Below are positions 33,353 to 59,099 of a stretch of 64,000 bases of DNA, one piece after another (position 1 is the stretch's first letter; every line of letters begins with the position of its first letter). This DNA comes from an uncultured Anaerolinea sp. (GTDB taxonomy: Bacteria > Chloroflexota > Anaerolineae > Anaerolineales > UBA4823): NCBI GenBank assembly GCA_964503145.1, contig CAZCYV010000010.1, forward strand, positions 8,613 through 72,612, given 5' to 3'. Made by a program: the position numbers and the translations under genes. A model generated the notes under the pieces. The model searched no databases and was not told where the DNA came from. It saw only the letters and a program-made list of their open reading frames with translations.

Positions 33353-33353
33353 G

Positions 33354-41622: not shown

Positions 41623-41667
41623 AAATTCGCTGATCCGCAACCGCGGGTCCATCGATAGCTAATTGAT

Positions 41668-41706
41668 TGGATGATGCGGGGAGTTGCATACCCCCCGCAT
41701 CATCCA
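41668..41706 (+). other. Intercistronic stem-loop after the binding-protein gene
   Basis: TGGATGATGCGGGG / CCCCGCATCATCCA 14-bp stem, no U-run; typical position for an mRNA-stabilising hairpin in ABC operons. Confidence 0.7.
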
Positions 41707-41728
41707 GAAATGCAGAGGAGTGTTCTTG

Positions 41729-43258: not shown

Positions 43259-43278
43259 ACCCGGGAAGTAGAGGTCCT

Positions 43279-44256: not shown

Positions 44257-44265
44257 AGGTGTCGA

Positions 44266-45288: not shown

Positions 45289-45315
45289 ACAAACTGATTG
45301 CCGGAGAGATCATCA

Positions 45316-46107
45316 ATGCAAAACTTCATAGAGACTTTCGAAAAACTGTTTCGCTTCGATGGCAAGGTGGCGATCGTCGCCGGCGGCTGCGGCGGCATCG
45401 GCTCAGTCATCTCCTATGGTCTGGCACAGTTAGGAGCCACCGTGGTGATCGCTGATCATCGTGAGGAGCAGGCCTGCGAATGCGTCGAAGGCATCGTCCG
45501 CCAGGGCTTCACCTCTCACGCCATCGGCTTCGAGATCACCCAGCCGGAAAGCGTTACGGCAATGGTCAATGAGACGGTTCAATTGGCTGGTCATGTGGAT
45601 ATCCTGGTCAACTGCGTGGGCATGCACATCGAAAAACCTGCGGAAGATTATCTGCTCGAAGACTGGGATCTGGTCAACAGCGTCAATCTGCGCGGGGCTT
45701 TCCTGCTTTCCCAGGCGGTTGGACGGCAGATGATCCAACAGGGGAGCGGCGGCAAGCACATCCATATTTCATCCGTGCGCAGCGTTCTGGGCCTGCGCCG
45801 TGGCTATGTCGCATACTGCGTGACCAAGGGCGGCATGAACATGCTCGTGAAACAACTCGCCACAGAATGGGCCAAGTACCAGATCACGGTGAACGCAGTG
45901 GCGCCGACCTTCATCCGCACCGAACTGGTCAAACACTATCTGGAAGACCGCGACTTCTACAACAGCCTGGTGGGACGCATTCCGCTGGGGCGGGTCGGCG
46001 AACCGCTGGATGTGGCCGGCGCGGTCCTGTACCTGGCATCGCCCGCAGCCGATTTCGTCACCGGCCATGTGCTGATGGTGGACGGCGGCGTGACAGCGTC
46101 GCAATAG
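45316..46107 (+). CDS. Short-chain dehydrogenase/reductase (KduD/gluconate 5-dehydrogenase-like)
   Basis: AGGCGGIG, VNCVG, YCVTK catalytic motif, VNAVAPT, VTGHVLMVDGG. Confidence 0.9.
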   Translation: MQNFIETFEKLFRFDGKVAIVAGGCGGIGSVISYGLAQLGATVVIADHREEQACECVEGIVRQGFTSHAIGFEITQPESVTAMVNETVQLAGHVDILVNCVGMHIEKPAEDYLLEDWDLVNSVNLRGAFLLSQAVGRQMIQQGSGGKHIHISSVRSVLGLRRGYVAYCVTKGGMNMLVKQLATEWAKYQITVNAVAPTFIRTELVKHYLEDRDFYNSLVGRIPLGRVGEPLDVAGAVLYLASPAADFVTGHVLMVDGGVTASQ

Positions 46108-46174
46108 ACAAGGGTCCTGGTGTCTCTGCCTCCCGGACCAGAAAAACTCAAAAGAATCTTTTTTGGAGGATAAC

Positions 46175-46900
46175 ATGGGTAGAACAATCATTGATCTGAG
46201 CATGCCAGTGCACAACAATATGGTGACTTTTCCACGCATTGTGCGCCCGGCTTTGTTGATGTACGAGAGCTGGGAGGAGTTCGCCGAGCGCATTGGCGCC
46301 GCAAAATACGGCGTGAACTGGCTGACCGCCAGTTACATGGTCACCTTGAGCGATCATGTCGGCACGCATATCGACTCGCTCAAGCATCTGCGCAAAGACG
46401 CCCCGGGGGCGGAGGGCATCCCGCTGGAGTATTGCTACAGCGATGGAGTCGTGCTGGACTTTTCGCATAAAGAGTTCGGATCGGGCATCTCGGCCCCCGA
46501 GATCGAAGAGGCTTGCAAAAAGATCAACTACACCCTCAAGCCTCTGGACATCGTGCTGATCTACACTGGCGCCGGGAAGATCAACGAAAGCGACGATTAT
46601 GTGCGCAATCACTGCGGTGTGGATGCCGATGCCACGCTGTACATGATCGAGAAAGGCATCAAAGTCATGGGCATCGATGCCATCACCTGGGACCGACCGG
46701 TCTGGTCGATGTTCGAAAACAAGATGTTCTGGGAATCCCATCGGGTGATGATCGATCACGAGTACTATCACATCGAGAACATGATGAACCTGGACAAGTT
46801 GCTCGACCGTCCTTACGGGTTCAAGGTCTCGGCGCTGCCGGTCAAATGGGTCGGTACAACTGCCTCTCCAATCCGAGCGATTGCGATTTACGAAGACTAG
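46175..46900 (+). CDS. Cyclase-family metal-dependent hydrolase (kynurenine formamidase-like)
   Basis: DLSMP, HVGTHIDSLKH, GIDAITWD, HIENM, SPIRAIA. Confidence 0.9.
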   Translation: MGRTIIDLSMPVHNNMVTFPRIVRPALLMYESWEEFAERIGAAKYGVNWLTASYMVTLSDHVGTHIDSLKHLRKDAPGAEGIPLEYCYSDGVVLDFSHKEFGSGISAPEIEEACKKINYTLKPLDIVLIYTGAGKINESDDYVRNHCGVDADATLYMIEKGIKVMGIDAITWDRPVWSMFENKMFWESHRVMIDHEYYHIENMMNLDKLLDRPYGFKVSALPVKWVGTTASPIRAIAIYED

Positions 46901-46966: not shown

Positions 46967-47941
46967 ATGACGTGTCCCGAGAACTCTTTTATTGCCTGGT
47001 TTGGCGAAATCGATCGTGGCGATGTGTCGGTAGCGGGCGGCAAAGGCGCCAGCCTGAGCGATATGGCCCGCGCGGGGATGCCGGTGCCGCCGGGTTTTGT
47101 GGTTTGTACCGGCGCATTCCGCCAGTTTTTGGACGAGAGCGGGCTGAATGCGGAGATCGAGCGCGCTCTGCAGGCGTTGGACATCGAAAACAATGCTCAA
47201 CTGGAGCGCATTGCCGAGAAAATCACCCAGAAGATCGAAAATACCGAACTCTCACCGCAACTCCACGATATGATCGTCAGGGCTTATCAGCGGCTTTGCG
47301 ACGATTACGGCGGGGTTGCCGTCGTCGCGGTGCGCTCCAGCGCTGCAGCCGAAGACTCGCAGGCGGCCAGCTTTGCCGGCCAACAGGAGACTTATCTGAA
47401 TGTGTTCGGCGACGAGACCGTGCTGCGCCAGGTGCGCGCCTGCTGGAGTTCATTTTTTAAGCCGCGCGCCATCTTCTACCGCGGTCAGAAAGGCAGCCTG
47501 AAAGACACCAGCATTGCGGTGGTGGTGCAGCGCATGGTCAACCCGGATAAATCGGGGGTGATGTTCACCGTTGACCCGGTGCAGCGGCGGCGCGACCACG
47601 TCATGATCGAGGCTGCCTGGGGCCTGGGCGAGGCGGTGGTTTCCGGCCTGGTGACGCCGGATAACTACGTGGTGAGCAAGACGGATGGGCGACTGGTGAG
47701 CAAGTTCGTCTCGCGCAAGACGGTGATGATCACGCGCCAGGAAAACGGCGTAGGCATCTGCCATGTTGAGTTGCCCCCCGAAAAAGCCCAGGCTCAGGTG
47801 CTCAGCGTTGAAGAGATCAACCGCCTGGCGGAACTGGGCAACCTGATCGAGGGCCATTTTGGTTGTCCCCAAGATGTGGAATGGGCCATCGAGGGCGATA
47901 TGATTTATGTGCTGCAGAGCCGCCCGGTGACGACCCTGTGA
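46967..47941 (+). CDS. Stand-alone PEP-synthase/PPDK N-terminal ATP-binding domain (PpsB/CreI-like subunit)
   Basis: GGKGASL, VAVRSSAAAED..ASFAGQQET, VVVQRMV, SGVMFT, WGLGEAVVSG, PQDVEWA, LQSRPVT, then stop; no His-swivel or pyruvate domain. Confidence 0.9.
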   Translation: MTCPENSFIAWFGEIDRGDVSVAGGKGASLSDMARAGMPVPPGFVVCTGAFRQFLDESGLNAEIERALQALDIENNAQLERIAEKITQKIENTELSPQLHDMIVRAYQRLCDDYGGVAVVAVRSSAAAEDSQAASFAGQQETYLNVFGDETVLRQVRACWSSFFKPRAIFYRGQKGSLKDTSIAVVVQRMVNPDKSGVMFTVDPVQRRRDHVMIEAAWGLGEAVVSGLVTPDNYVVSKTDGRLVSKFVSRKTVMITRQENGVGICHVELPPEKAQAQVLSVEEINRLAELGNLIEGHFGCPQDVEWAIEGDMIYVLQSRPVTTL

Positions 47942-47986
47942 GGCGGGCGTCGGTTGCGGCTGAAAATGATCGATGAGGAGTAAATC

Positions 47987-48901
47987 GTGGAATATCAGGA
48001 ACAGATCACTTCAGGGCCAGCCCTGATCCGTATCGACGTCCAGACCTCTGAGCCAATGGAATGGGTGCTGGACGACACCACCTTTTTGGATTATCGCCTG
48101 GGTAAAGTCGAACGCAGCCACACCATCACCGCCAGCAAGGTCGACCTGGTGTGGGACCGCGATGCAACGCACAAGACCATCTGCTTTCAAGACGATCAAC
48201 TGCGGCTCACCGGCGATTGGGCGCAGGGCGAACTGCAAAGGATCCTGGTCACCCTGTTGGCCCGGCGCATGGAAGAGAAAGATGTTTACCTGTTTCACTC
48301 TTCCGCGGTGCGCTATCGCGATACCTCGATCCTGTTCATGGGCGGCGAGAGCAACAACGGCAAGACCATGGCGCAGATCGAAGCGCGACGCCGCGGCGGG
48401 GCGTTCATCGCCACCGAGACCACCGTCATCGACCGCAAGACAGAGTTGGTGATCGCTGGCAGCCGGGATGTGTTCCTGGTCAAGCGCGCCAAGGGCACCG
48501 AACGCGCCGATAAGCCATCGCAGAACGTCGGGGTGCAGAAACTCTTCGGAGGGGAGTTGCCCGATTTGAACGTTTTCTACACCGAGCCGACCAGGATCGA
48601 TCGGGTCATCTTGCCGGATATCGATGGCCATTTCGATGTCAGCGTCACCGAGTTGGGCGAATACGAGAAAGCCTACCAGAGTTTCCACTGTCTGATCAAT
48701 TACATGGGCCTGAACATCTTGCTGGCGCCCGGCCTGCCGATGCCGTTGCTGGACACCGAAGAGTTGCGCCTCAAACGCGCCGAGTTCATTCAGGAGTTCA
48801 TTTCCGGCAAAGACGGCCAGCCAAAACCCTATCACCTGATCCGGGCGCGCACGCCGCAGATTTTGCTCGACGAAGTGGAAAAATTGCTCGCCGCGGGTTA
48901 G
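47987..48901 (+). CDS. Uncharacterised P-loop protein, HPr-kinase-like
   Basis: LFHSSAV followed by ILFMGGESNNGKT, resembling the H(A/S)xxV...GxSGxGKS arrangement of HprK-like kinases; strong SD GAGGAG. Confidence 0.6.
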   Translation: MEYQEQITSGPALIRIDVQTSEPMEWVLDDTTFLDYRLGKVERSHTITASKVDLVWDRDATHKTICFQDDQLRLTGDWAQGELQRILVTLLARRMEEKDVYLFHSSAVRYRDTSILFMGGESNNGKTMAQIEARRRGGAFIATETTVIDRKTELVIAGSRDVFLVKRAKGTERADKPSQNVGVQKLFGGELPDLNVFYTEPTRIDRVILPDIDGHFDVSVTELGEYEKAYQSFHCLINYMGLNILLAPGLPMPLLDTEELRLKRAEFIQEFISGKDGQPKPYHLIRARTPQILLDEVEKLLAAG

Positions 48902-48943
48902 CGCTGGGCGCCAAAAAGGTCAGGCTCAGGAGATTACATTGCG

Positions 48944-49501
48944 ATGATCATCGAAGGTAAGTTTGCCATCCAGGCCCCGATCCAACAGGTGTGGAGCTTC
49001 CTGGTCGATCTCGAACGGGTGAGCGCCTGCATGCCCGGCGTAGAGAAGGTGTCTCAGACGGATGACAAAACCTATAACGGTACAGTGACGGTCAAGGTAG
49101 GGCCGATCGGCACTTCCTTTCAGGGCAACGTTGTCAAAACAGAAGAACAGGCGCCAAATCTGCTAAAGGCCAGGCTGCAGGGCCGCGATGCCAAGACCGC
49201 CAGCATGGTCACAGGTGAATTTGTGTCCGAACTGAGCGAAACCGCAGATGGGCAGACCGAAGTCAATTACAAGTTCGATATTGCGATCCGCGGCCACCTG
49301 GGCCAGTTTGGGCAGGCGGTGATCCTGGATACCGCGCGTCAGCTCACAGACGAGTTCGTGGCGTGTGTGCGGGCGCGTATCGAGCGCCCTGAGGCGCTGC
49401 CGGAGGTGACTGCCCCCAAATCCAATCCTTTTTGGGTGGTCGTGCGCGCCTTCTTTGCCAACTTATGGGCAAGCATCAAGCGCCTGTTTCGCAAAACTTG
49501 A
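48944..49501 (+). CDS. CoxG/SRPBCC family protein
   Basis: APIQQVWSFLVD....CMPG, VKVGPI, RGHLGQFG, C-terminal hydrophobic tail. Confidence 0.85.
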   Translation: MIIEGKFAIQAPIQQVWSFLVDLERVSACMPGVEKVSQTDDKTYNGTVTVKVGPIGTSFQGNVVKTEEQAPNLLKARLQGRDAKTASMVTGEFVSELSETADGQTEVNYKFDIAIRGHLGQFGQAVILDTARQLTDEFVACVRARIERPEALPEVTAPKSNPFWVVVRAFFANLWASIKRLFRKT

Positions 49502-49554
49502 TCGGCGTACCGGCTTGACCCGCCGAATAATCTGGAGTTCGAACGACTGCAAAG

Positions 49555-50442
49555 ATGTTGGATATCACCTGGCTGCGTCCGAAGACGATCCCCGAAGCCC
49601 TGCAGATGCTCGCCGAGTACGGCGATGAAGGCAAGCTGGTAGCAGGCGGCACCTGGGTTTCGCTGGTGCTCAAGCAGCGGCTGTTGATGCCGTCTGCGCT
49701 GATCTATTTGGGCGACATCCCAGGATTGGATCGCATCGAACAATTGCCTGATGGGAGTCTGCGCATCGGCGCGCTGGTCACTCACCGCACAGTGGAACTT
49801 TCGCCCCTCGTTCGAGAGCATTCTGCGCTGTTGAGCGAGACCTTCGCCACAGTGGCCAACGTGCGAGTGCGTTGCCAGGCGACGGTAGGCGGAGTGCTTT
49901 GCGACGCCGACTATGCCTCGGACCCGCCCGCCGCGCTGGCCGCGCTGCAAGCGACAGTGATCGCCGTCAGCCCGCGCGGCCAGCGCGCCATACCGGTCAG
50001 CGACTTCATCGTCGGCCACTACGCCACCAGCCTGCAGCCGGACGAGATCGTCACGCATATCGTGGTGCCCAAACCCGAGTTGAAAATCCACAGCGCCTAT
50101 CTAAAGTACCGCACGCGGTCGCATGAAGACCGCCCGTGCATTGGGGTGGCGGTGGCGGCGCAACTCCTGCCGGACGGGCGCTGCCGGGACCTGCAGGTCG
50201 TAGTCGGCGCTGTCGCCGATACCCCAAAGCGAATCGACCCGGCATTGCAGATGGCGCACAATCAGCAACTCACCCACGATTTGATCCAGGCGATCGCTGA
50301 TCGCTACGCAGCAGAGATCGATCCACTGCAGGACCTACGCGCTTCCAGCGAATATCGCAAAGCCATGGTGCGCGTGTTTGTAAAGCGGGCTATCCAGGCG
50401 GCGCTGGACAGGAACCCGAACGGGGGTGCGGCATGGAACTGA
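49555..50442 (+). CDS. Xanthine dehydrogenase-family FAD-binding subunit (CoxM-like)
   Basis: VAGGT, LRIGALVTH, VRCQATVGG, DLRASSEYRK. Confidence 0.92.
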   Translation: MLDITWLRPKTIPEALQMLAEYGDEGKLVAGGTWVSLVLKQRLLMPSALIYLGDIPGLDRIEQLPDGSLRIGALVTHRTVELSPLVREHSALLSETFATVANVRVRCQATVGGVLCDADYASDPPAALAALQATVIAVSPRGQRAIPVSDFIVGHYATSLQPDEIVTHIVVPKPELKIHSAYLKYRTRSHEDRPCIGVAVAAQLLPDGRCRDLQVVVGAVADTPKRIDPALQMAHNQQLTHDLIQAIADRYAAEIDPLQDLRASSEYRKAMVRVFVKRAIQAALDRNPNGGAAWN

Positions 50443-52757
50443 ACCGTGCGCCAGAAAAGCGAACCGCCCCGCCGATGATCGACGCCCTCGAGCGAGTAAC
50501 CGGCAAGCTCGAGTACGTCATCGATATCGAGTTGCCTGGTATGTTGCATGGCAAAGTGCTGCGCAGCCCCTTCCCACACGCCCGCATCACGCGCCTGGAT
50601 GCCAGCCCGGCGCTGGAGTTGCCCGGCGTGATCGCCGTGCTGACTCGCGAGGATCTCGTCGGCAGCGCTCAAGGCGCGCCGCTGGTGAACGATCCCTACC
50701 ACGGGCCGCAGGTGGCCGACCAGCCCATCGTGGCGCTCGATAAAGTTTGCCACGTGGGCGATGCAGTGGCGGCTGTCGCAGCGGAGGATCCGGAGACCGC
50801 CGAAGAAGCCCTGCTGTATATCGACGTCGAATACGAAGAGCTTCCGGCGGTGTTCGATCCGGTGGAGGCCATGCAACCCGGGGCGCCCCTGGTGCACGAA
50901 CTGGGCGATGACTTTTTGGGAACGGCGGCGTACTTCGGGATCAACCCGCTGTTGGGTACCAATTGTCCACATCGCTACTCCCTGCGGGTAGGCGATGTAG
51001 AAAAAGGCTTTGCTGAAGCCGATCACGTGATAGAAGGCACCTTCCGGGTGCCCTCGGCGGCGCATGTGCCGATGGAGCCGCAGTGCTCCATCGCATACTT
51101 CAACGAAGACGGGTTGACCGTTTACACCAACACTCAGACACCCTTCAATGTGCGAGATGCCCTGGCGCATATGTTCGGGCTTCCCCAGGAGCGGGTGCGC
51201 GTGCTGATCCGTACGCTGGGCGGGGCATACGGCGCCAAAACCTTCATGCATGCCGAGCCGGTAGCCGTGGCTCTGGCGCGCAAGACCGGCCGTCCGGTGA
51301 AAGTCATGTACTCGCGGGCAGAAACCTTCACTGCGGTCAACCGCCATCCGATGGTTGCCACCATCAGCCTGGGCGTCAAAAACGATGGCCGCATCACCGC
51401 CAAAAAAGTCATCGCCTACTATGACACCGGCGCCTATGCCGACTCCGGACCGGGCGTGGCCCAGAAGGGCGGCTATGCATCTGTGGGACCCTATCACATC
51501 CCGAACGTTTGGGTCGATTCTCATTGCGTTTATACCAACCTGCCGCGCAACGGCGCCTACCGGGGTTACGCAGTGACGCAGATCGCTTTCGCTTCGGAAG
51601 CGATCATGGATATGGCCGCCCAGCGCATCGGCATGGATCCGCTGGAGTTCCGCCTGAAGAACCTGTTGCACAACGGCGACACCTTCGCCACCGGGCAGCA
51701 CCTGGATGACGTGCAGTTCGAAGCATGCCTGCGGGACGCGGCGGAAGCCATCGATTGGAAATCTGGCGTCCGCAGCGTCACTGCGGATGGCAAGCTACGA
51801 GGGAAGGGCCTGGCCGTGCTGATCAAAGGGATGCTGACGCCGGGCAAGTCCACTGCGGCCGTGGAGCTCAGCGCAGATGGAAGGGCTTTTCTGCACACCG
51901 GCACCGTGGAATTAGGCCAGGGAGCGCGCACGATCATCGCTCAGATCGCCGGCGAAGTGCTCGATCTGCCTTACGATGCCTTCGAGGTGACTTTGCCGGA
52001 CACCGAGTTCACGCCCTTCGACAGCCGCACGACCTCCAGCCGTTCGACATATATGATGGGCAACGCGGTGCGCGAAGCGGCGGAAGACCTGCGCTGTAAG
52101 TTAATCGAGCTGGCAGCGGCGCATTTTGGAGTGTCTCCTGAAGCCATCTGCCTGCAAGATGGCAGGGTGTATCCAGGGGCAGGGAATGCAGCAGCGCCCG
52201 AGGCAAGCTTGACCTACGCAGAGCTGTTGCAAAGCCAGGGGATCGATTGCCTGGTTGGAAATGGGCTGCATCAGAACCCGGGCGGCCTGGACGCAGCTAC
52301 AGGCATGGGCGTGGCCTCATCCCACTGGCACCAGGGGGCTGGCGCCGTCGAGGTCGAGATCGACCCCGAAACCGGCAAGGTGGACATCCTGAAGTGCTAT
52401 TCCTGCGTTTATGCGGGCAGGGTGATCAACCGCGTGCTGGCGGAGCTGCAAACCGAGGGGAACATGATCTTCGGGGTCGGCAGCGCGCTGTTCGAAGAGA
52501 TCGTATTCGATCAGGGGCAGGCGATCAATTCGAACCTGTCGGATTACCTGATCCCCTCGATGATGGACATGCCGCTGGAGATGCGCGGGAAGCTGCTGGA
52601 AATCCCAGGCGCCGTATCTCACGGCGTTGGTGAGACGGCGTTGCCGGCAATCCCGGCGGCGGTGGGCAACGCCGTGGCAAACGCCGTTGGCGTTCGCCTG
52701 TATGAGCTGCCCATCACGCCGGAAAAAGTGCTGCGCGCCCTGGGCAGGCTGAGTTGA
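50433..52757 (+). CDS. Xanthine dehydrogenase-family molybdopterin-binding subunit (Mo-hydroxylase)
   Basis: LRSPFPHARI, HVPMEP, GGAYGAK, AYRGY, ELGQG, GVGE catalytic Glu. Confidence 0.93.
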   Translation: MELNRAPEKRTAPPMIDALERVTGKLEYVIDIELPGMLHGKVLRSPFPHARITRLDASPALELPGVIAVLTREDLVGSAQGAPLVNDPYHGPQVADQPIVALDKVCHVGDAVAAVAAEDPETAEEALLYIDVEYEELPAVFDPVEAMQPGAPLVHELGDDFLGTAAYFGINPLLGTNCPHRYSLRVGDVEKGFAEADHVIEGTFRVPSAAHVPMEPQCSIAYFNEDGLTVYTNTQTPFNVRDALAHMFGLPQERVRVLIRTLGGAYGAKTFMHAEPVAVALARKTGRPVKVMYSRAETFTAVNRHPMVATISLGVKNDGRITAKKVIAYYDTGAYADSGPGVAQKGGYASVGPYHIPNVWVDSHCVYTNLPRNGAYRGYAVTQIAFASEAIMDMAAQRIGMDPLEFRLKNLLHNGDTFATGQHLDDVQFEACLRDAAEAIDWKSGVRSVTADGKLRGKGLAVLIKGMLTPGKSTAAVELSADGRAFLHTGTVELGQGARTIIAQIAGEVLDLPYDAFEVTLPDTEFTPFDSRTTSSRSTYMMGNAVREAAEDLRCKLIELAAAHFGVSPEAICLQDGRVYPGAGNAAAPEASLTYAELLQSQGIDCLVGNGLHQNPGGLDAATGMGVASSHWHQGAGAVEVEIDPETGKVDILKCYSCVYAGRVINRVLAELQTEGNMIFGVGSALFEEIVFDQGQAINSNLSDYLIPSMMDMPLEMRGKLLEIPGAVSHGVGETALPAIPAAVGNAVANAVGVRLYELPITPEKVLRALGRLS

Positions 52758-52808
52758 AACTGTCTGCCGAAGATCGCATCCCTGGCAGATAGAGAGAAGG
52801 AAGGCAAG

Positions 52809-53324
52809 TTGAAGCAAACCATTCACATCCGCTTGAACGGCGAGGCGCTCTCGCTGGAGGTGCAAACCCATGACGTATTGCTGGATGTCTTGCGGCGCGA
52901 TTTGAAACTCCACGGGGCGCGCGAGACCTGCGGCATTGGCATCTGCGGGGCGTGCACCGTGCTGGTGGACGGGAAACCGCTCAGCACCTGCCTGCTCCTG
53001 GCTCCCCAGGTGGATGGCTGTGAAATTCAAACCATCGAAGGGATGTCTCAGAATGGCAACCTTCATCCGATCCAGCAGGCGTTTATCGACCACAATGCTT
53101 TTCAATGCAGCTACTGCACCCCGGCCATGATCCTGACCGCCAGGGCTTTGCTGAACGAAAATCCCGAACCCGACGAGGAGCAGATAAAGGAGTATCTGGC
53201 CGGGAATTTGTGCCGCTGTGGCAGTTATGTGAAAATTATCGAAGCAGTGAAAGACGCAAGTCAGCGCCTAAGAGCGGAACGTACTTCAGCAAATTTACCG
53301 TTCAAAAAGGAGGCTCAGCAATAA
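52809..53324 (+). CDS. Xanthine dehydrogenase-family 2Fe-2S subunit (CoxS-like)
   Basis: CGIGICGACTV...C and QCSYCTP...CRC. Confidence 0.94.
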   Translation: MKQTIHIRLNGEALSLEVQTHDVLLDVLRRDLKLHGARETCGIGICGACTVLVDGKPLSTCLLLAPQVDGCEIQTIEGMSQNGNLHPIQQAFIDHNAFQCSYCTPAMILTARALLNENPEPDEEQIKEYLAGNLCRCGSYVKIIEAVKDASQRLRAERTSANLPFKKEAQQ

Positions 53325-53465
53325 AAGATTCTGACCATTCAGCCTATTCTTAAGCCTGCACCAATCTGGTCAAAACGCGAATTTCGACGGATGCATCTAC
53401 GGAGACCAAGAACGAATTCAGGACCGTTCGATTCAGTGACCAAACCAAGAAAGGAGTTTGCTGCC

Positions 53466-55142
53466 ATGCCTGATATGACCGTTTTAGGGACTTTCTTTGG
53501 CGATGAGACCTTTCCCATCGAGTGGAAAGACGAGCAGGAAAAAAGCCTGCACTGGTTTTACGATGACCTGCATTGCCCCCAGCCGATTTCGCCGATGTAC
53601 TTCGATATCGGCGGCTGGTGGCTGACCTGCCGCTACATGTACCGGCGCTTTGGTCTGCCTTTCGGTTACGACTGGATCGCCAAGAAGATCAACAATTACG
53701 TGTACAGCGCCATCGTCCCTCAGGACGACGAGGAAATCGCACGCCTGGGACCGTACTTTGGCATGGTGCTCCCAGTTTACGCCACAAAGTTTTATGAGTG
53801 GTGGAAAGAGCGCCTGGTGCCCGAGGTGCTGCGCAACTTCGAGTTTCTTGACACCTATCCCTATGACACCGCTTCGCTGCCAGAGCTGATGGTGCTGTTT
53901 GAGGATGCCCTGGACATCCAGGAGCGCCATTTCCGCATTCACTGGCTGATCAACATGGCGCAATTCGCCTCCTTCCTGAACTTCCAGAACATCTTTGCCG
54001 AGGTCGTTGAAGGCGGCGCCGATCCGATCCTGACCGGAAAGATCCTGGTCTCCGTCGATGACCGCAACTGGGATTCGGTGCGCGGCCTGTGCGCGCTGCG
54101 CGATCAGGTTAAGGCCGACGCGACCTTGCGCCAGGCATTCCAGGGCGAGACCGCTTCCGAAATCCTGTCGGCGCTGAACAAGACCGACAAGGGCAGGGAG
54201 TTCTTGGGCAAGGTCAAGGAGTGGGCTAAAGAGTTCGGCTTCAAGGCCATGTACACCCATGAGTACATCTTCCCGCTGTGGGTGGAAAACAACGCCCCAA
54301 TCATCGAAGCGGTCAAGGGGTATCTCGAGTCTGGATACGATGTGGAGGTCGATCTACAAAAGGTAAAAGACTCGCAGAACGCCGCCATTGCCGAGATGTT
54401 CACCAAGGTCAAGGACGCCGACAAGCCCCGCCTGCAGGAAGCCCTGGATATGGCGCTGAAGATGGCTCCGATGACCCCCGATCATCACTTCTACTTCGAT
54501 CAGGGAACCTATGCACGCATGCGCCTGGTGCTCCTGGCGATCGGGCGTAAGCTGGTCGAGAACGGCGTGCTGAACGACGCCGAGGATATCATGTATCTGA
54601 CCTATGACGAGCTGCGCCATATCGCCGCAGTGCCAACCGCCTTCGACGCCAAAGCGCTGACCCAGAAGCGCCGCGATGAGAACCTGGCGGCCAGCAATAT
54701 CCGCCCGCGCGATTGGGTTGGCACGGTGACCAAGTGGTCGCTCTACGACGAGCCCTATAAGAGCCTGTGGGGCTTCCCCGAGAAGTTTACCAAGACGGCC
54801 GAGCGCTCGGCGGAACCGGCGGATGTGATCACCGGCCTGGCAGCTTCGCCAGGCGTAGTAGAAGGCATTGCCCGCTACGTCAAATCACCGGCTGAATTCG
54901 ACCAGGTGCAGAAGGGCGAAATCATGGTTTGCAAGATGACCAACCCGGCCTGGGTGGTGGTCTTCACCAAGATCAAAGGCCTGGTGACCGACGCGGGCGG
55001 CGTGCTGGCGCACCCGGCAGTAGTCTCGCGCGAATTCGGCATCCCGGCGGTGGTCGGTACCTCGGTCGCCACTGAGAAGATCAAGACCGGCATGCGCATT
55101 CGCGTCAATGGTAACACGGGCGTAGTGGAGATCATCGGCTAG
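53466..55142 (+). CDS. PEP-utilising phosphohistidine (swivel) domain protein with large N-terminal substrate domain (PpsA/CreH-like subunit)
   Basis: C-terminal GLAASPGVVEG..., TNPAW, LVTDAGGVLAHPAVVSREFGIPAVVG; about 450-residue mostly helical N-terminal region; SD AAGGAG. Confidence 0.88.
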   Translation: MPDMTVLGTFFGDETFPIEWKDEQEKSLHWFYDDLHCPQPISPMYFDIGGWWLTCRYMYRRFGLPFGYDWIAKKINNYVYSAIVPQDDEEIARLGPYFGMVLPVYATKFYEWWKERLVPEVLRNFEFLDTYPYDTASLPELMVLFEDALDIQERHFRIHWLINMAQFASFLNFQNIFAEVVEGGADPILTGKILVSVDDRNWDSVRGLCALRDQVKADATLRQAFQGETASEILSALNKTDKGREFLGKVKEWAKEFGFKAMYTHEYIFPLWVENNAPIIEAVKGYLESGYDVEVDLQKVKDSQNAAIAEMFTKVKDADKPRLQEALDMALKMAPMTPDHHFYFDQGTYARMRLVLLAIGRKLVENGVLNDAEDIMYLTYDELRHIAAVPTAFDAKALTQKRRDENLAASNIRPRDWVGTVTKWSLYDEPYKSLWGFPEKFTKTAERSAEPADVITGLAASPGVVEGIARYVKSPAEFDQVQKGEIMVCKMTNPAWVVVFTKIKGLVTDAGGVLAHPAVVSREFGIPAVVGTSVATEKIKTGMRIRVNGNTGVVEIIG

Positions 55143-55258
55143 ACACCCCACGAGGCCAATTGAATGTATGAATGGGCTGTCCTGGCGACGACGAAGTCTT
55201 CCAGACCAGCTTGTCGCCAGGACCCCCGAAAAACCAAACGCAAGGAGAAAAAATCGGT

Positions 55259-57145
55259 ATGGCATTTCATGGTGGTTACGCTGGAATGATGTTAGATGTC
55301 GATCTGACGGCGGGTGTGATCCAAAAGAAGCCGTTAGATGAGATGTTCGCGCGCAAGTATATCGGTGGGCGCGGCTTCACCAGCCGCCTGCAATACGAGC
55401 TGATTACGCCAGAGATCGATCCTCTGAGCCCGGAGAATCCGTTGATCATCGCCAACGGTCCGCTCACCGGCACTCGCGCCCCCGCCGGCAGTCGGTTTGT
55501 CGTCGGCGCGCGTTCGCCTTTGACCGGCATCCTGGGCGACGCCAACGGCGGCGGGCATTGGGGGCCGGAACTGAAGCGGGCTGGCTTCGATTTGATCATC
55601 TTCCGCGGCCGGGCGGAGCGCCCGGTGTATCTGTGGATCAAGGATGGAGAAGCCGAACTGCGCGATGCCAGCCATCTGTGGGGGCTGGACACGCAACAGA
55701 CCCGCCTGGCGCTGATCAAAGAGCTGGGCGGGGATGAGAAGATCAAAGTGGCTTGCATCGGCCCGGCAGGTGAAAACCTGGTGCGCTTCTCAGGCTTTGT
55801 GGTGGACGTGGATCACCTGGCGGCGCGCACCGGCGTCGGGGCGGTGATGGGCTCGAAGAATCTCAAGGCGATCCCGGTGCGCGGCACCCACCCGGTCCCG
55901 CTGTTCGACAAGAAGGCTTTTCAGGAGATCTCCGGCGTCCTGAACAAGATCCTGCTGAGCGACCAGATGAGCGGCGGCGAACTGGCGACCTACGGCACGA
56001 CTTCGCTGCTCACTTTGCACAACACCTACGGCGGCCTGGCCACCCGCAACTGGCAAACCGGCGTATTCGAAGGCGCCGACAAAATCGATGGGGTGGCGTT
56101 CAAGAAGTCTGGCTATGAGGAAGATCCAACCGCCTGCTACTCCTGCCCCTGCCGCTGCGACCGCTATGCCAAGGTGGATGAGGGCGAATACGCTGGCACC
56201 GAGGTGGGCGGCCCGGAATATTTCACCGTCTGCTCTTTCGGCTCGAAATGCGGCAACGACAACCTGGCCTCGATCCTCAAAGCCAACGAACTGTGCAACC
56301 TGTACGGCCTGGACACCGCCTCGACCGGCGGCATCATCGGCTTCCTTATGGAAGCCTGGCAACGTGGGGCAATCACCGCCGAAGACACCGACGGCCTGGA
56401 CTTTTCCTGGGGCAATCACCACACGATCGTCGAGATGATCCATCGCATCGCTTATCGCAAGGGCTTCGGTGATCGCGTGGCAGAAGGCATCCGCCCATTG
56501 GCGGCCTTCATCGGCAAAGGCGCCGAGGATTACGCCATCCATGTCAAAGGCATGGACGCGGTCACCTTCGATCCACGCGCCCTGAAGGTGTACAACTTCC
56601 GCTATGCTGTGGCCTCGCGCGGCGCCGACCACCTGCGCATCTCGGCGCATGGCGCTTATGGGCTGGAAGTCCTGCCGGTCGATGAAGCAGCGGCCAAGAT
56701 GAAATTCTGGCAAGATATCGTCGGCATCCCCGATCTGATGGGTCTGTGCAAGTTCCCATATACCTTTTATTCCGAGACGGCTGAAGTGACTTTCAAGAAA
56801 GTGCTGGAAATCGTGCCAGAACTGTATGGCGCGGCGACCAGTTTCGAGATCACCGGCGAGGAACTCAAGACCGCCTCGGCGCGGATGGGCACCGTGGAAC
56901 GCGCCTTCAACTCGCGCCTGGGCCTGACTTCCAAAGACGATGTCTTACCCCGACGCTTCCTGGAAGAGCCGTTGCCAGAAGGCCCCAAAAAGGGCCAGGT
57001 GATGGATATCCTGGAGCCGCTCAAATATTATTTCTATGCCGCGCAAGGTTGGGACACCGAAACCGGCATCCCAACTCGCGAGACGTTGGAAAATTTGGGC
57101 TTGAGTGATATCGCTGAAGATTTGGCTGCTCGTTCGGTGATATGA
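55259..57145 (+). CDS. Aldehyde:ferredoxin oxidoreductase family protein (second copy)
   Basis: YIGGRG, RSPLTG, IGPAGE, RTGVGAVMGSKNLKAI, CYSCPCRC, GPEY, GLDT, SRGADH, LGLCKF-like. Confidence 0.93.
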   Translation: MAFHGGYAGMMLDVDLTAGVIQKKPLDEMFARKYIGGRGFTSRLQYELITPEIDPLSPENPLIIANGPLTGTRAPAGSRFVVGARSPLTGILGDANGGGHWGPELKRAGFDLIIFRGRAERPVYLWIKDGEAELRDASHLWGLDTQQTRLALIKELGGDEKIKVACIGPAGENLVRFSGFVVDVDHLAARTGVGAVMGSKNLKAIPVRGTHPVPLFDKKAFQEISGVLNKILLSDQMSGGELATYGTTSLLTLHNTYGGLATRNWQTGVFEGADKIDGVAFKKSGYEEDPTACYSCPCRCDRYAKVDEGEYAGTEVGGPEYFTVCSFGSKCGNDNLASILKANELCNLYGLDTASTGGIIGFLMEAWQRGAITAEDTDGLDFSWGNHHTIVEMIHRIAYRKGFGDRVAEGIRPLAAFIGKGAEDYAIHVKGMDAVTFDPRALKVYNFRYAVASRGADHLRISAHGAYGLEVLPVDEAAAKMKFWQDIVGIPDLMGLCKFPYTFYSETAEVTFKKVLEIVPELYGAATSFEITGEELKTASARMGTVERAFNSRLGLTSKDDVLPRRFLEEPLPEGPKKGQVMDILEPLKYYFYAAQGWDTETGIPTRETLENLGLSDIAEDLAARSVI

Positions 57146-57249
57146 CCTGAACCAGCTCGACAGGCTTGCGGAGTCTGCGCTGACCCACATCGTTGGCGCA
57201 GCCGCCAGACTCCAAAAGCCTGGGCGGGGTGGTGTTTTGTGGAGGCAAG

Positions 57250-57978: not shown

Positions 57979-58015
57979 GAAAACTGGATTCGTTGCCGAT
58001 TGGTTGCATCCCGTT

Positions 58016-59071: not shown

Positions 59072-59099
59072 CCGGTCTTATTGACTGCATGAGGCATCA

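What the first reader, a model, noticed from the sequence alone, without database searches (positions are those of the whole stretch)
46967..55142. Split PEP-synthase-like phosphotransferase bracketing a P-loop protein and a Mo-hydroxylase
A 324-aa ATP-binding half (46967-47941) and a 558-aa substrate + phospho-His half (53466-55142) reproduce the two-subunit architecture of phenylphosphate synthase (PpsAB) and Corynebacterium CreHI, which phosphorylate phenolic OH groups. There is no pyruvate-binding barrel and no UbiD carboxylase or P450 partner here. Instead the halves enclose an unknown P-loop protein and coxG/M/L/S-like genes, and are flanked by a cyclase, an SDR and an AOR. I infer a new 'phosphorylate, oxidise or (de)hydroxylate, dephosphorylate' route for a hydroxylated (hetero)aromatic or enolisable compound, using Mo/W enzymes without O2.
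Basis: partly seen in the sequence, partly recalled or inferred. Interest (0 to 1): 0.85.

Follow-up and report, generated by a model that had tools for sequence, protein, structure and literature searches.

The report
Phenol-kinase operon with PEPCK-like enzyme
This is a real and widely conserved but unstudied bacterial breakdown operon: a two-part kinase of the kind that phosphorylates phenols, a new small relative of PEP carboxykinase, and an oxidising enzyme that differs between genomes (here a molybdenum hydroxylase and a tungsten-type aldehyde oxidoreductase).

Summary
Genes 46967-47941 (ATP-grasp half) and 53466-55142 (substrate-binding and phospho-His half) form a split RPH/PpsAB-type dikinase. 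They bracket a 304-aa P-loop protein and coxG/M/L/S, with SDR and cyclase genes upstream and an AOR downstream.

1. A published genetic precedent exists. In the 3-hydroxypyridine cluster of Ensifer adhaerens HP1, a four-component Mo hydroxylase with a separate SRPBCC subunit needs adjacent PPDK-like and PEP-utilizer genes.
2. The Mo hydroxylase is not a fixed partner. The closest relatives have PpsB-Ploop-PpsA contiguous, with no cox genes. In 38 of 39 well-flanked loci the module carries either CoxLMS or an AOR, never both.
3. The P-loop protein is a miniature PEP-carboxykinase-like enzyme. Its family was found in 460 species genomes, all uncharacterised.
4. In three Acidobacteriota loci a UPF0261 (MarK-type aromatic kinase) stands in for the dikinase, which supports phosphorylation of a phenolic OH.

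Best reading: a phospho-activation catabolic module for a phenolic or enolic compound, probably taken up here as a glycoside. The Cox/AOR step is probably aldehyde oxidation, and the PEPCK-like protein is a second phosphotransferase, possibly a (de)carboxylating one. The substrate is unknown.

Verdict: a new variant of a known kind, of moderate to high interest.

The parts
35371..39251 (+). Four upstream genes of the same gene string: DeoC/LacD-type aldolase (35371-36111), Gfo/Idh/MocA oxidoreductase (36108-37274), xylose-isomerase-like TIM barrel AP_endonuc_2 (37295-38209) and ROK kinase (38259-39251). Candidate sugar or glycoside-processing part.
   Evidence: Pfam. AP_endonuc_2 and ROK also precede the module in relatives L003, L010 and L012.
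39427..45288 (+). CUT2-type ABC transporter: a 731-aa binding protein with two Peripla_BP_4 domains (39427-41622), a double ABC ATPase (41684-43258), and two BPD_transp_2 permeases (ORF 42955-44256, whose true start is probably near 43255, and 44266-45288).
   Evidence: Pfam. The closest solved structures are sugar-binding proteins.
45298..46107 (+). SDR dehydrogenase/reductase.
   Evidence: Pfam adh_short_C2 E 6e-58. Closest solved structures are gluconate-5-/polyol dehydrogenases. An SDR or Zn-ADH is present in 38 of 39 well-flanked loci.
46163..46900 (+). 'Cyclase'-family (PF04199) metal-dependent hydrolase.
   Evidence: Pfam E 8e-32. Weak matches to kynurenine formamidase and isatin hydrolase. 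The family includes dihydrophloroglucinol cyclohydrolase (PMC10470551). Some hydrolase (cyclase, MBL or SGL) is present in 35 of 39 loci.
46967..47941 (+). PpsB/HpeI-like ATP-grasp (nucleotide-binding) half of a two-component dikinase, 324 aa.
   Evidence: PPDK_N E 2e-107. PDB matches: PEP synthases 2.5e-78, the 387-aa single-domain chain 9goj 2.9e-63, RPH 1e-58. Called as 324 aa on contig L001.
47987..48901 (+). Miniature PEP-carboxykinase-like P-loop phosphotransferase, 304 aa; a family with no characterised member.
   Evidence: AF2 mean pLDDT 90.7. The Foldseek top 50 are all PEPCK, best E 4e-7. 36 of 40 family members hit PF01293 weakly. A profile alignment to PEPCK covers GxWxxGE..K, H104 and G120-K126-T. 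807 homologues, all named 'hypothetical'.
48944..49501 (+). CoxG/SRPBCC subunit, separate from the Fe-S subunit, with a hydrophobic C-terminal tail.
   Evidence: Pfam COXG E 2.9e-25. The tail NPFWVVVRAFFANLWASIKRLF is visible in the translation.
49555..50442 (+). CoxM-type FAD subunit of a molybdenum hydroxylase (295 aa, no Fe-S insertion).
   Evidence: FAD_binding_5 E 2.3e-44 plus CO_deh_flav_C. It matches the 4-HBCR beta model in two stretches only (best stretch residues 116-282), far below the cut-off.
50433..52757 (+). CoxL-type molybdopterin subunit (774 aa).
   Evidence: Ald_Xan_dh_C, MoCoBD_1 and MoCoBD_2. Closest solved structures: 4-hydroxybenzoyl-CoA reductase alpha 6e-95 and 6-hydroxypseudooxynicotine dehydrogenase 1e-84. 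All NCBIfam equivalogs score below their cut-offs.
52809..53324 (+). CoxS-type [2Fe-2S] subunit.
   Evidence: Fer2_2 E 1.9e-32 and Fer2.
53466..55142 (+). PpsA/HpeH-like half: RPH-like substrate-binding domain plus phospho-His swivel domain (558 aa). The catalytic His lies in GGVLAHPAVVSRE.
   Evidence: PEP-utilizers E 1.4e-22. NCBIfam PRK08296. RPH structures at 2e-31 over residues 247-582. Homologues carry PF27448 Rph_4th. The His motif is conserved in all 43 homologues scored.
55172..57145 (+). Aldehyde:ferredoxin oxidoreductase of the canonical AOR clade. The true start is probably the ATG at 55259.
   Evidence: AFOR_N and AFOR_C. PDB AORs at 4.5e-135 and 4.3e-132; BamB only 7e-67.
57193..57978 (+). 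GntR/FCD transcriptional regulator, the likely regulator of the module.
   Evidence: Pfam. Present in 71 of 80 P-loop loci.
58004..59886 (+). URO-D-like protein (58004-59071) and C_GCAxxG_C_C protein (59341-59886). Membership in the module is uncertain.
   Evidence: Pfam. A GCAxxG gene follows GntR in 16 of 80 loci. The URO-D-like gene was not found in relatives.

Best explanation
The region is the centre of a conserved, experimentally uncharacterised catabolic operon that works by phospho-activation of a hydroxylated aromatic or enolisable compound.

Shown:
- The fixed core across phyla is a kinase, the PEPCK-like P-loop protein, a dehydrogenase (SDR or Zn-ADH), a metal hydrolase (cyclase, MBL or SGL), a GntR/FCD regulator, and one oxidoreductase that is either a CoxLMS-type Mo hydroxylase or an AOR.
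- The kinase is usually the two-component RPH/PpsAB-type dikinase. Here that is PpsB-like 46967-47941 plus PpsA-like 53466-55142. In some genomes a UPF0261/MarK-type kinase appears in its place.

Inferred:
1. In this Anaerolineae lineage the substrate is probably imported by the sugar-type ABC transporter as a glycoside, and the sugar is removed and phosphorylated by the Gfo/Idh/MocA, TIM-barrel and ROK proteins.
2. The dikinase phosphorylates the phenolic or enolic OH (ATP -> AMP + Pi through a phospho-His on the swivel domain).
3. The SDR and the Mo hydroxylase/AOR oxidise a side-chain alcohol and then an aldehyde of the protected intermediate. This parallels the CreHI-CreG-CreC logic, without O2-dependent enzymes.
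4. The PEPCK-like protein performs a second nucleotide-dependent phosphoryl transfer on a carboxylate or enol(aryl)-phosphate intermediate, possibly coupled to decarboxylation or carboxylation.
5. The cyclase-family hydrolase either removes the phosphate or opens a ring.

The coxGMLS block between the two kinase halves is a dispensable cassette, not a defining feature.
For: Domain architecture of both halves, with no pyruvate barrel. The catalytic His motif is conserved in 43 of 43 homologues scored.

According to PMC12167813 and the text quoted, the characterised two-component relatives (PpsAB, CreHI, HpeHI/AcvAB) all phosphorylate phenolic OH groups.

Neighbourhood statistics over 39 loci with at least 8 kb of flank on each side of the P-loop gene:
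- PpsA 35, GntR 34
- CoxL 30, AOR 8, either one 38, both 0
- dehydrogenase 38, hydrolase 35
- PpsA or UPF0261 38; three of the four loci without PpsA have UPF0261

UPF0261/MarK is an aromatic kinase and a documented functional analogue of HpeHI/AcvAB.

The window AOR belongs to the canonical aldehyde-oxidising clade. The Cox sets in other phyla are a different subtype: order M-S-L, with a median of about 35% identity to the window CoxL. The oxidoreductase has therefore been replaced non-orthologously at least twice.

The closest relatives, L010-L012, have PpsB-Ploop-PpsA contiguous.

The P-loop protein is PEPCK-like by fold, by weak Pfam hits in 36 of 40 members and by motif-level alignment that keeps the metal and ATP ligands.

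Genetic precedent that such a dikinase pair is required for a Mo-hydroxylase-dependent conversion comes from the 3hpd cluster.
Against: - No substrate is identified and nothing here is biochemical.
- Much of the accessory gene content looks carbohydrate-like. This includes the sugar-type binding protein, ROK kinase, DeoC aldolase, split transketolase, transaldolase/FSA, SGL lactonase, Zn-ADH, an acetoin-dehydrogenase-like E1/E2 set, and an SDR closest to gluconate-5-dehydrogenases.
- The window CoxL is closest to ring-acting enzymes (4-HBCR, 6-hydroxypseudooxynicotine dehydrogenase) rather than to aldehyde oxidoreductases. Ring hydroxylation in this lineage is therefore not excluded.
- In 13 of 35 loci with PpsA, no PPDK_N partner lies within 10 kb. 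The dikinase may therefore work differently there.
- The PEPCK CO2-contacting Tyr207 position is variable and Lys212 is replaced by Gln (residue roles from memory), so a carboxykinase activity is unproven.
Confidence: 0.5

Rival explanations
1. The Mo hydroxylase is the obligate catalytic partner of the dikinase. O-phosphorylation makes a hydroxylated (hetero)aromatic ring electron-poor, the Mo enzyme then hydroxylates it (or reductively removes the phosphorylated oxygen), and a hydrolase takes the phosphate off.
For: - The 3hpd cluster shows genetically that PPDK-like and PEP-utilizer genes are essential for HpdA1-4-dependent conversion of 3-hydroxypyridine. It shares a separate SRPBCC subunit, a GntR regulator and an ABC transporter.
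- The window CoxL is closest to ring-acting enzymes.
- The same Cox subtype (CoxL 56-77% identical) is interleaved with, or adjacent to, the Pps genes in Thermomicrobium roseum, L003 and L032; L013 shares the linked CoxG and CoxM (52-56%) before its contig ends.
- The CoxG subunit has a hydrophobic C-terminal tail, as reported for HpdA3.
Against: - The closest relatives lack the cassette altogether, and two of them also lack an AOR in the operon.
- CoxLMS and a canonical AOR alternate in 38 of 39 loci.
- The FAD subunit has no 4-HBCR-type [4Fe-4S] insertion for low-potential electron input.
- No maleamate-pathway or other N-heterocycle genes are in the window.
Confidence: 0.2
2. A carbohydrate or sugar-acid pathway. 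A sugar or cyclitol is oxidised (SDR/Zn-ADH) to a lactone or cyclic dione, which is opened by the hydrolase (cyclase/MBL/SGL). The chain is cleaved by TPP enzymes or aldolases to a hydroxy-aldehyde, which CoxLMS or AOR oxidises, as in archaeal non-phosphorylative glycolysis. The PEPCK-like protein and the dikinase phosphorylate the resulting acid or enol.
For: - Sugar-type transporter, ROK kinase, Gfo/Idh/MocA oxidoreductase, TIM barrel and DeoC aldolase in the window.
- The SDR is closest to gluconate-5-/polyol dehydrogenases.
- The best NCBIfam hits for CoxM and CoxS are the glyceraldehyde dehydrogenase beta and gamma subunits.
- SGL, Zn-ADH, transaldolase/FSA, transketolase and E1/E2 genes recur in the neighbourhoods.
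- AOR and Mo enzymes both oxidise glyceraldehyde in archaea (established knowledge; PMC4726530, listed).
Against: - Every characterised member of the two-component dikinase subfamily, and the one characterised UPF0261 kinase, acts on aromatic OH groups.
- No sugar-acid dehydratase or KDG-type aldolase is among the conserved clusters.
- Many loci use branched-chain-amino-acid-type transporters rather than sugar transporters.
- The NCBIfam glyceraldehyde-dehydrogenase scores are far below their cut-offs.
Confidence: 0.15
3. The P-loop protein is not a metabolic (carboxy)kinase. Instead it is an HprK/PSRP-like protein kinase or phospho-donor that loads or regulates the swivel His domain of the PpsA-like protein.
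For: - PEPCK and HprK/P share a P-loop fold (established knowledge).
- A sister group of the family hits Hpr_kinase_C weakly.
- In 13 of 35 loci PpsA has no PPDK_N partner within 10 kb while the P-loop gene is adjacent.
- PEPS and PPDK are regulated by a dedicated P-loop kinase/phosphorylase (established knowledge).
Against: - The Foldseek top 50 are all PEPCK.
- 36 of 40 members hit PEPCK_ATP and only 1 hits Hpr_kinase_C.
- The PEPCK-specific GxWxxGE..K substrate and metal motif is kept.
- The residue two positions before the catalytic His, which is the regulatory Thr in PEPS/PPDK, is T in 19, L in 18 and V in 6 homologues.
- Acidobacteriota loci have the P-loop gene next to CoxMSL with no PpsA at all.
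Confidence: 0.13
4. The two halves are simply a split PEP synthase that makes PEP from pyruvate.
For: The NCBIfam best hits for the ATP-grasp half are PEP synthase models, and the closest solved structures are PEP synthases.
Against: - No PEP/pyruvate-binding TIM barrel (PF02896) is present in either half.
- The region N-terminal to the His domain aligns with the rifampin-binding domain of RPH and with PRK08296.
- All PEPS model scores are far below their cut-offs.
Confidence: 0.02

Closest known systems
3hpd cluster of Ensifer adhaerens HP1 (HpdA1A2A3A4 + orf9/orf10; Wang et al., bioRxiv 10.1101/2020.01.08.898148)
   Same: - A four-component Mo hydroxylase with the SRPBCC/CoxG part as a separate polypeptide.
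- Adjacent genes for a PPDK-like protein and a PEP-utilizer mobile-domain protein, both genetically essential for the conversion.
- A GntR regulator and an ABC transporter in the cluster.
- The role of the kinase pair is unknown.
   Different: - The 3hpd cluster is described in organisms growing aerobically and feeds the O2-dependent maleamate pathway, which has no counterpart in the window.
- The accessible text mentions no PEPCK-like P-loop, cyclase, SDR or AOR genes.
- Sequence orthology was not tested here, because no HpdA sequences could be obtained.
Two-component small-molecule dikinases: HpeHI/AcvAB (acetovanillone/4-hydroxyacetophenone), CreHI (4-cresol) and PpsAB (phenol) (PMC12167813, PMC9618137; CreHI and PpsAB as cited)
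   Same: - A separate ATP-grasp subunit, with a second subunit carrying an RPH-like substrate domain and a swivel His.
- No pyruvate barrel.
- Embedded in catabolic clusters.
- They follow a phosphorylate, transform, dephosphorylate logic.
   Different: - Known partners are a UbiD-type carboxylase (Pps), a biotin carboxylase with a HAD phosphatase (Hpe/Acv, seen in locus L090), or a P450 with dehydrogenases (Cre).
- Here the partners are a PEPCK-like protein, an SDR, a cyclase and Mo/W oxidoreductases.
- PpsA-like identity to Rhodococcus Hpe-type proteins is only about 26-28%.
ATP-dependent PEP carboxykinase (PF01293)
   Same: - P-loop GxxxxGKT, with an invariant His 16 residues upstream.
- The GxWxxGE..K motif, and an acidic residue after the P-loop.
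- Fold match with Foldseek probability 1.0.
   Different: - 304 aa instead of about 530.
- Scores below the Pfam threshold.
- The Tyr207 position is variable and Lys212 is Gln.
- TM-score is only about 0.45-0.5.
- No activity is known for any member.
MarK (UPF0261) aromatic kinase of Novosphingobium aromaticivorans (PMC12624787)
   Same: It occurs in the same neighbourhoods as the P-loop gene (11 of 39 loci, and in Thermomicrobium roseum), and it replaces the dikinase in Acidobacteriota loci. This mirrors the documented MarK versus AcvAB/HpeHI equivalence.
   Different: It is not present in the window itself. It uses ATP -> ADP rather than AMP + Pi.
Phloroglucinol reductase + dihydrophloroglucinol cyclohydrolase pair (Clostridium scatologenes, PMC10470551)
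   Same: An adjacent SDR and a 'cyclase'-family (PF04199) metal hydrolase. The precedent is that this pair reduces a phenol tautomer and hydrolytically opens the ring.
   Different: - The downstream TfD and TAL genes are absent.
- The window SDR is closest to sugar-acid dehydrogenases, and the cyclase is closest to kynurenine formamidases.
- Orthology was not testable.

Membership tests
Two-component RPH/PpsAB-type small-molecule dikinase | ATP-grasp (PPDK_N) domain on its own polypeptide | tested here: met
   46967-47941 carries PPDK_N only, E 2e-107. It matches the 387-aa single-domain chain 9goj and the RPH ATP-grasp domain.
Two-component RPH/PpsAB-type small-molecule dikinase | Second polypeptide with an RPH-like substrate-binding domain and a swivel domain carrying the catalytic His; no PEP/pyruvate TIM barrel | tested here: met
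   PEP-utilizers domain at residues 507-577. RPH match over 247-582. PRK08296 match over 46-582. No PF02896. The His motif is conserved.
Two-component RPH/PpsAB-type small-molecule dikinase | The two genes are adjacent | tested here: not met
   In the window they are 5.5 kb apart, separated by five genes. In the closest relatives only the P-loop gene lies between them.
Two-component RPH/PpsAB-type small-molecule dikinase | ATP -> AMP + Pi with a phospho-His intermediate; phenolic substrate | not testable with these tools
   This needs an enzyme assay.
Phenylphosphate synthase/carboxylase system (Thauera type) | UbiD-type phenylphosphate carboxylase genes next to the synthase | tested here: not met
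   No UbiD-family gene was found among the window ORFs scanned, among the 26 conserved neighbourhood clusters that were annotated, or in the Pfam gene tables of the looked-up contigs.
3hpd-type Mo hydroxylase + kinase system | Four-component Mo hydroxylase with a separate SRPBCC subunit, flanked by PPDK-like and PEP-utilizer genes, with a GntR regulator and an ABC transporter | tested here: met
   compared.
3hpd-type Mo hydroxylase + kinase system | Maleamate-pathway genes (hpdBCDE) in the cluster | tested here: not met
   None were found among the annotated window genes.
3hpd-type Mo hydroxylase + kinase system | Sequence orthology to HpdA1-4/orf9/orf10 | not tested
   No HpdA sequences could be retrieved. 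The plasmid searches found an Hpe-type cluster and the Thermomicrobium roseum cluster instead.
ATP-dependent PEP carboxykinase | P-loop, upstream metal-ligand His, and GxWxxGE..K motif | tested here: met
   Profile alignment to T. thermophilus and E. coli PEPCK. Invariant columns H104, G120, K126 and E144. Residue roles are from memory.
ATP-dependent PEP carboxykinase | Reaches the Pfam PF01293 gathering score; full-length two-domain protein of about 530 aa | tested here: not met
   13.6 bits against a cut-off of 26.5; 304 aa. TM-score normalised to the target is about 0.3.
ATP-dependent PEP carboxykinase | Carboxylation or decarboxylation activity | not testable with these tools
   The Tyr207 position is variable and Lys212 is Gln, so the activity is uncertain.
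HprK/P or PSRP-type protein kinase/phosphorylase | Membership of Hpr_kinase_C or Kinase-PPPase; a conserved regulatory Thr two residues before the target His | tested here: not met
   1 of 40 members hits Hpr_kinase_C at E 0.14, and none hits Kinase-PPPase. The -2 residue is T in 19, L in 18 and V in 6 homologues.
Xanthine-oxidase-family Mo hydroxylase | L (hammerhead + MoCoBD_1/2), M (FAD) and S (2x[2Fe-2S]) subunits; catalytic Glu | tested here: met
   The GVGETA motif near the C-terminus of CoxL is seen in the translation (the motif assignment is from memory).
4-Hydroxybenzoyl-CoA reductase | [4Fe-4S]-binding insertion in the FAD subunit; reaches the TIGR03194/03195 cut-offs | tested here: not met
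   CoxL scores 485 bits against a cut-off of 995. CoxM is 295 aa and matches the beta model in two stretches only, 109 bits against 405.
Canonical aldehyde:ferredoxin oxidoreductase | AFOR_N and AFOR_C domains; closest to characterised AORs rather than BamB, FOR or GAPOR | tested here: met
Phloroglucinol PGR/DPGC pathway | Adjacent SDR and cyclase-family hydrolase, together with TfD and a BKACE-type TAL | tested here: inconclusive
   The pair is present. No TfD or BKACE genes were seen. No reference sequences were available for an orthology test.

The most novel reading that the evidence does not exclude
The 304-aa protein may be a new, minimal carboxykinase. Together with the dikinase it would reproduce the PEP synthase + PEP carboxykinase pair on an aromatic or enolic substrate. 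The dikinase makes an aryl/enol phosphate (ATP -> AMP + Pi). The PEPCK-like enzyme then transfers that phosphate to ADP while the freed phenolate or enolate attacks CO2. Alternatively it runs in reverse and decarboxylates a hydroxy-aromatic acid made by the Mo hydroxylase/AOR. This would be an ATP-recovering (de)carboxylation with no UbiD or biotin enzyme.
Probability: 0.15. Interest if true: 0.85.

Novelty: new variant of a known kind. Interest (0 to 1): 0.62.

Why it matters
Phosphorylation of phenolic OH groups as the opening move of aromatic catabolism is a small but growing theme (phenol, cresol, acetovanillone, aniline, 3-hydroxypyridine). How a dikinase helps a molybdenum hydroxylase has been an open question since the 3hpd report.

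This module shows that the dikinase is linked to Mo or W oxidoreductases in at least six phyla. Almost all of these genomes are from uncultured organisms: Anaerolineae, Acidimicrobiia, Spirochaetota, Acidobacteriota, Limnocylindrales and Clostridia. The dikinase always travels with an unstudied PEPCK-like enzyme family.

Working out the chemistry would:
- assign functions to a gene family found in at least 460 species genomes;
- possibly reveal a new kind of (de)carboxylating kinase;
- clarify how subsurface and sediment bacteria degrade phenolics or their glycosides without oxygenases.

A homologous cluster in the cultured Thermomicrobium roseum makes part of this testable.

Tried and rejected
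- tblastn of the P-loop protein against 72,556 plasmids gave no match.
- Plasmid searches with both kinase halves, aimed at recovering a 3hpd cluster, found the Thermomicrobium roseum cluster and an Hpe-type cluster in Rhizobium but no 3hpd cluster. Orthology to HpdA therefore stays untested.
- Sequence search of the P-loop protein alone against the PDB gave nothing. Only the profile and the predicted fold gave the PEPCK link.
- Promoter and terminator scans found no more sites than in shuffled sequence, so they do not define operon ends. No tRNA genes are present.
- The idea that the SDR + cyclase pair is phloroglucinol reductase + cyclohydrolase could not be tested by sequence. The closest solved relatives point elsewhere, so it is kept only as an analogy.
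- The branched-chain-type binding protein of other loci has no informative solved relative.
- The idea that the AOR is a BamB-like ring reductase is rejected, because it is closest to canonical AORs.
- The idea that the Mo enzyme is a 4-HBCR-like reductive dehydroxylase is rejected for lack of the Fe-S insertion and for low model scores.
- The 205-aa 'hypothetical' gene of T. roseum between PpsB and CoxM is not a CoxG.
- Many conserved 'ORF clusters' in the neighbourhood analysis were antisense shadows of real genes and were discarded.

Full report
**1. What is there**

The finding lies inside a string of about 20 genes on the + strand, from 35371 to at least 59071. Gaps are 0-175 bp up to the URO-D-like gene, with 269 bp before the next gene. 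In order, the genes are:

- DeoC/LacD-type aldolase, Gfo/Idh/MocA oxidoreductase, xylose-isomerase-like TIM barrel and ROK kinase
- a CUT2 ABC transporter whose 731-aa binding protein has two Peripla_BP_4 domains
- SDR (45298-46107) and PF04199 'cyclase' (46163-46900)
- a PPDK_N-only protein (46967-47941)
- a 304-aa P-loop protein (47987-48901)
- CoxG, CoxM, CoxL and CoxS (48944-53324)
- a 558-aa protein with a C-terminal PEP-utilizers swivel domain (53466-55142)
- an AOR (55172-57145)
- a GntR/FCD regulator (57193-57978)
- a URO-D-like protein and a C_GCAxxG_C_C protein

Gene callers on an identical contig and on relatives give 324 and 558 aa, and a good ribosome-binding site precedes the ATG at 53466. 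Neither half has a PEP/pyruvate barrel. The larger half matches the rifampin-binding and His domains of rifampin phosphotransferase (E 2e-31) and the NCBIfam PRK08296 models. Homologues carry the newer Pfam domain Rph_4th. One correction: the gene following the AOR is a GntR regulator.

**2. The P-loop protein**

It has 807 homologues in the 5.8-billion-protein collection. All that carry a name are called hypothetical. In the library of 1.84 billion cluster representatives the family is compact: 240 representatives at E <= 1e-3, most of them fragments.

An AlphaFold model built from 40 homologues is confident (mean pLDDT 90.7). Its 50 best structural matches in the PDB are all PEP carboxykinases. 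The best E is 4e-7, the probability 1.0, and the TM-score about 0.45-0.5 on the query. Two further results agree with this:

- 36 of 40 family members hit Pfam PEPCK_ATP weakly (best 6.6e-6), and only one hits Hpr_kinase_C.
- A family profile aligns to Thermus and E. coli PEPCK across GxWxxGE..(Q)K/R, an invariant His 16 residues before the P-loop, and GGESNxGKT.

By my recollection of the E. coli enzyme, these positions correspond to K213, H232 and K254/T255. Invariant E144 sits in the position of D269. The Tyr207 position is variable and Lys212 is Gln. Residues 160-180, rich in invariant Arg, Glu and Asp, are the least confident part of the model.

I therefore read the protein as a catalytically competent, miniature PEPCK-like phosphotransferase. 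Whether it (de)carboxylates is open.

**3. Is the association conserved?**

A scan of one genome per species (185,579 species) found 460 genomes that encode a relative. The best 80 are all metagenome-assembled genomes: Anaerolineae and other Chloroflexota, Acidimicrobiia and other Actinomycetota, Spirochaetota, Acidobacteriota, Limnocylindrales, Clostridia/Bacillota, Planctomycetota and Gaiellaceae. The window's own organism is an Anaerolineae relative (84-86% identity to three such MAGs).

I compared the window proteins with these loci by tblastn. I also clustered all ORFs of the loci, removed antisense shadow ORFs, and annotated the recurrent clusters. In the 39 loci with at least 8 kb on both sides of the P-loop gene, the counts are:

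| Component | Loci (of 39) |
|---|---|
| PpsA-like | 35 |
| GntR | 34 |
| Dehydrogenase (SDR or Zn-ADH) | 38 |
| Metal hydrolase (either of two cyclase groups, MBL or SGL) | 35 |
| CoxL | 30 |
| AOR | 8 |
| CoxL or AOR | 38 |
| CoxL and AOR together | 0 |

The commonest gene order is PpsA-GntR-Ploop-CoxM-CoxS-CoxL. The AOR type is PpsA-AOR-Cyc-(UPF0261)-SDR-PpsB-Ploop-GntR, followed by an acetoin-dehydrogenase-like E1/E2 set. The association is real.

**4. Three results change the interpretation**

(a) The bracketing is not a defining feature. The closest relatives, L010-L012 (PpsA 89-91% identical), have SDR-Cyc-PpsB-Ploop-PpsA-(AOR)-GntR with only 137-275 bp between the P-loop gene and PpsA and no cox genes. 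L003 and L013 do have the cassette after the P-loop gene; in L003 it lies, as in the window, between the P-loop gene and PpsA. The coxGMLS block is a present/absent cassette.

(b) The oxidoreductase is replaced non-orthologously. The window type has the order (G)-M-L-S, with CoxL 56-77% identical in L003, L032 and Thermomicrobium roseum. It differs from the M-S-L type of other phyla, which is a median of about 35% identical to the window CoxL. Both types alternate with an AOR. The window AOR is closest to canonical aldehyde-oxidising AORs (E 4.5e-135) and is far from BamB. The one reaction that these enzyme families share is aldehyde oxidation. The FAD subunit also lacks the Fe-S insertion of 4-hydroxybenzoyl-CoA reductase, which argues against reductive dehydroxylation. 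On the other side, the window CoxL is closest to ring-acting enzymes (4-HBCR alpha 6e-95, 6-hydroxypseudooxynicotine dehydrogenase). Ring hydroxylation in this particular lineage therefore remains possible.

(c) The kinase is also replaceable. UPF0261 genes occur in 11 of the 39 loci. Three of the four loci without PpsA, all Acidobacteriota, have UPF0261-SDR-(Cyc)-Ploop-CoxMSL. The only characterised UPF0261 protein, MarK, is an ATP-dependent kinase of phenolic lignin monomers and a functional analogue of the two-component kinases AcvAB/HpeHI (PMC12624787). Two unrelated phenol-kinase families appearing in the same slot is the best evidence here that the kinase step phosphorylates a phenolic or enolic OH.

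**5. What is already known**

- Two-component dikinases are an established subfamily: PpsAB, CreHI, HpeHI and AcvAB (PMC12167813).
- The pairing with a Mo hydroxylase has a published genetic precedent. In Ensifer adhaerens HP1, the four-component 3-hydroxypyridine dehydrogenase HpdA1-4 has a separate SRPBCC subunit. It only works when the adjacent genes orf9 (PPDK-like) and orf10 (PEP-utilizer mobile domain) are present. Knock-outs of either gene abolish growth, and the cluster also has a GntR regulator and an ABC transporter. The authors could not explain the kinase's role.
- I could not obtain HpdA sequences, so orthology is untested. The plasmid searches instead found a homologous cluster on the Thermomicrobium roseum megaplasmid, without a P-loop gene. 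Its identities to the window proteins are PpsA 55%, CoxL 56% and cyclase 67%, and it also carries UPF0261 with a PEP-hydrolase-like protein, an FAH-family hydrolase and an ABM monooxygenase. They also found an Hpe-type cluster in Rhizobium: kinase, biotin carboxylase and HAD phosphatase.
- The adjacent SDR + cyclase pair has a precedent in phloroglucinol reductase + dihydrophloroglucinol cyclohydrolase (PMC10470551). That is an analogy only.

**6. Most likely mechanism**

Shown: the architecture and its conservation. Inferred: everything about the chemistry.

I favour a phospho-activation catabolic module (confidence 0.5).
1. The dikinase phosphorylates a phenolic or enolic OH.
2. The SDR or Zn-ADH, and then the Mo hydroxylase or AOR, oxidise a side-chain alcohol and aldehyde of the protected intermediate. 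This follows the CreHI-CreG-CreC logic with O2-independent enzymes.
3. The PEPCK-like enzyme carries out a second nucleotide-dependent phosphoryl transfer on the resulting acid or aryl/enol phosphate.
4. The metal hydrolase removes the phosphate or opens a ring.

In the window's lineage the sugar-type transporter, the Gfo/Idh/MocA and TIM-barrel pair and the ROK kinase suggest that the compound arrives as a glycoside.

Rivals:
- The strict 3hpd-like reading (0.2).
- A carbohydrate or sugar-acid pathway in which Cox/AOR is a glyceraldehyde-type oxidoreductase (0.15). Much of the accessory gene content is sugar-like, and that is the main weakness of my preferred reading.
- The P-loop protein as a regulator of, or phospho-donor for, PpsA (0.13). 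In its favour, 13 of 35 loci with PpsA have no PPDK_N partner within 10 kb. Against it are the PEPCK-specific motifs, the non-conserved Thr before the catalytic His, and the loci that have the P-loop gene but no PpsA.
- A plain split PEP synthase (0.02).

**7. Verdict**

This is a real, well-conserved and uncharacterised system. It is a new variant of a known kind, not a categorically new one. Its most novel element is the PEPCK-like family. If that protein turns out to be an aryl/enol-phosphate carboxykinase (probability about 0.15), it would be a new type of ATP-recovering (de)carboxylase.

Noticed in passing
window 27962-35053, minus strand: A divergently oriented gene group next to the operon: IclR regulator (34226-35053), split transketolase (33354-34229 and 32414-33352), a second and more divergent AOR (30653-32383; about 29% identical to the homologues of the first AOR in relatives' loci), a LarA-like lactate-racemase-family protein (29352-30737) and a radical-SAM/SPASM protein (27962-29221). 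Split transketolase or E1 genes also recur near the module in other phyla.
   Followed up: partly
window 39427-41622 (+) and 39400-41652 (-): The ABC binding protein is a tandem duplication of two Peripla_BP_4 domains in one 731-aa protein. A 750-aa ORF without any Pfam hit runs antisense over its whole length and is almost certainly a shadow ORF.
   Followed up: partly
window 24957-26411, minus strand: A cytochrome P450 gene (E 1e-89) in an Anaerolineae-like genome.
   Followed up: no
window 58004-59071: A URO-D-family protein in which only the C-terminal half (residues 153-350) matches the model. It is absent from the corresponding position in relatives. Corrinoid-dependent methyltransferases belong to this family, so it could hint at methoxylated aromatics.
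   Followed up: no
window 21636-22391 (-) and 60817-61575 (+); L005 1305-2021; L011, L012: Two TauE/SafE-family exporter genes are in the window. A TauE gene also follows the module in relatives L011 and L012 and lies near it in L005.
   Followed up: no
proteins P0130 (410 aa) and P0231 (847 aa) from the representative library: These are predicted proteins in which the P-loop protein runs on into CoxM, and in P0231 on into CoxS and CoxL. They may be true fusions or read-through and frameshift artefacts of metagenome gene calling. Either way they reflect the tight P-loop-CoxM adjacency.
   Followed up: partly
L009 = Thermomicrobium roseum DSM 5159 megaplasmid NC_011961.1, 56.1-68.5 kb: A cultured organism carries a homologous cluster: UPF0261 + PEP-hydrolase-like, GntR, cyclase, PpsB, a 205-aa hypothetical, CoxM, an FAH-family hydrolase, an ABM monooxygenase, PpsA, CoxL and CoxS. 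It has no P-loop gene. It is a possible experimental entry point.
   Followed up: partly
loci L049, L065, L068, L077-L079, L081 (e.g. L068 3893-6040): Nine loci carry a 715-aa protein with PPDK_N fused to a PEP-utilizers domain, a long C-terminal extension and no pyruvate barrel, next to a separate PpsA-like gene. It may serve as the ATP-grasp partner where no PpsB gene is present.
   Followed up: no
window 35342-35373 (+): A 13-bp-stem hairpin followed by a T-run, immediately before the first gene of the operon, in the divergent IclR/DeoC intergenic region.
   Followed up: no
window 61678-63955: An FHA-domain protein and a zinc-ribbon/PP2C phosphatase downstream of the operon. A PP2C/SpoIIE and Ser/Thr kinase group also lies near the module in L004.
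   Followed up: no
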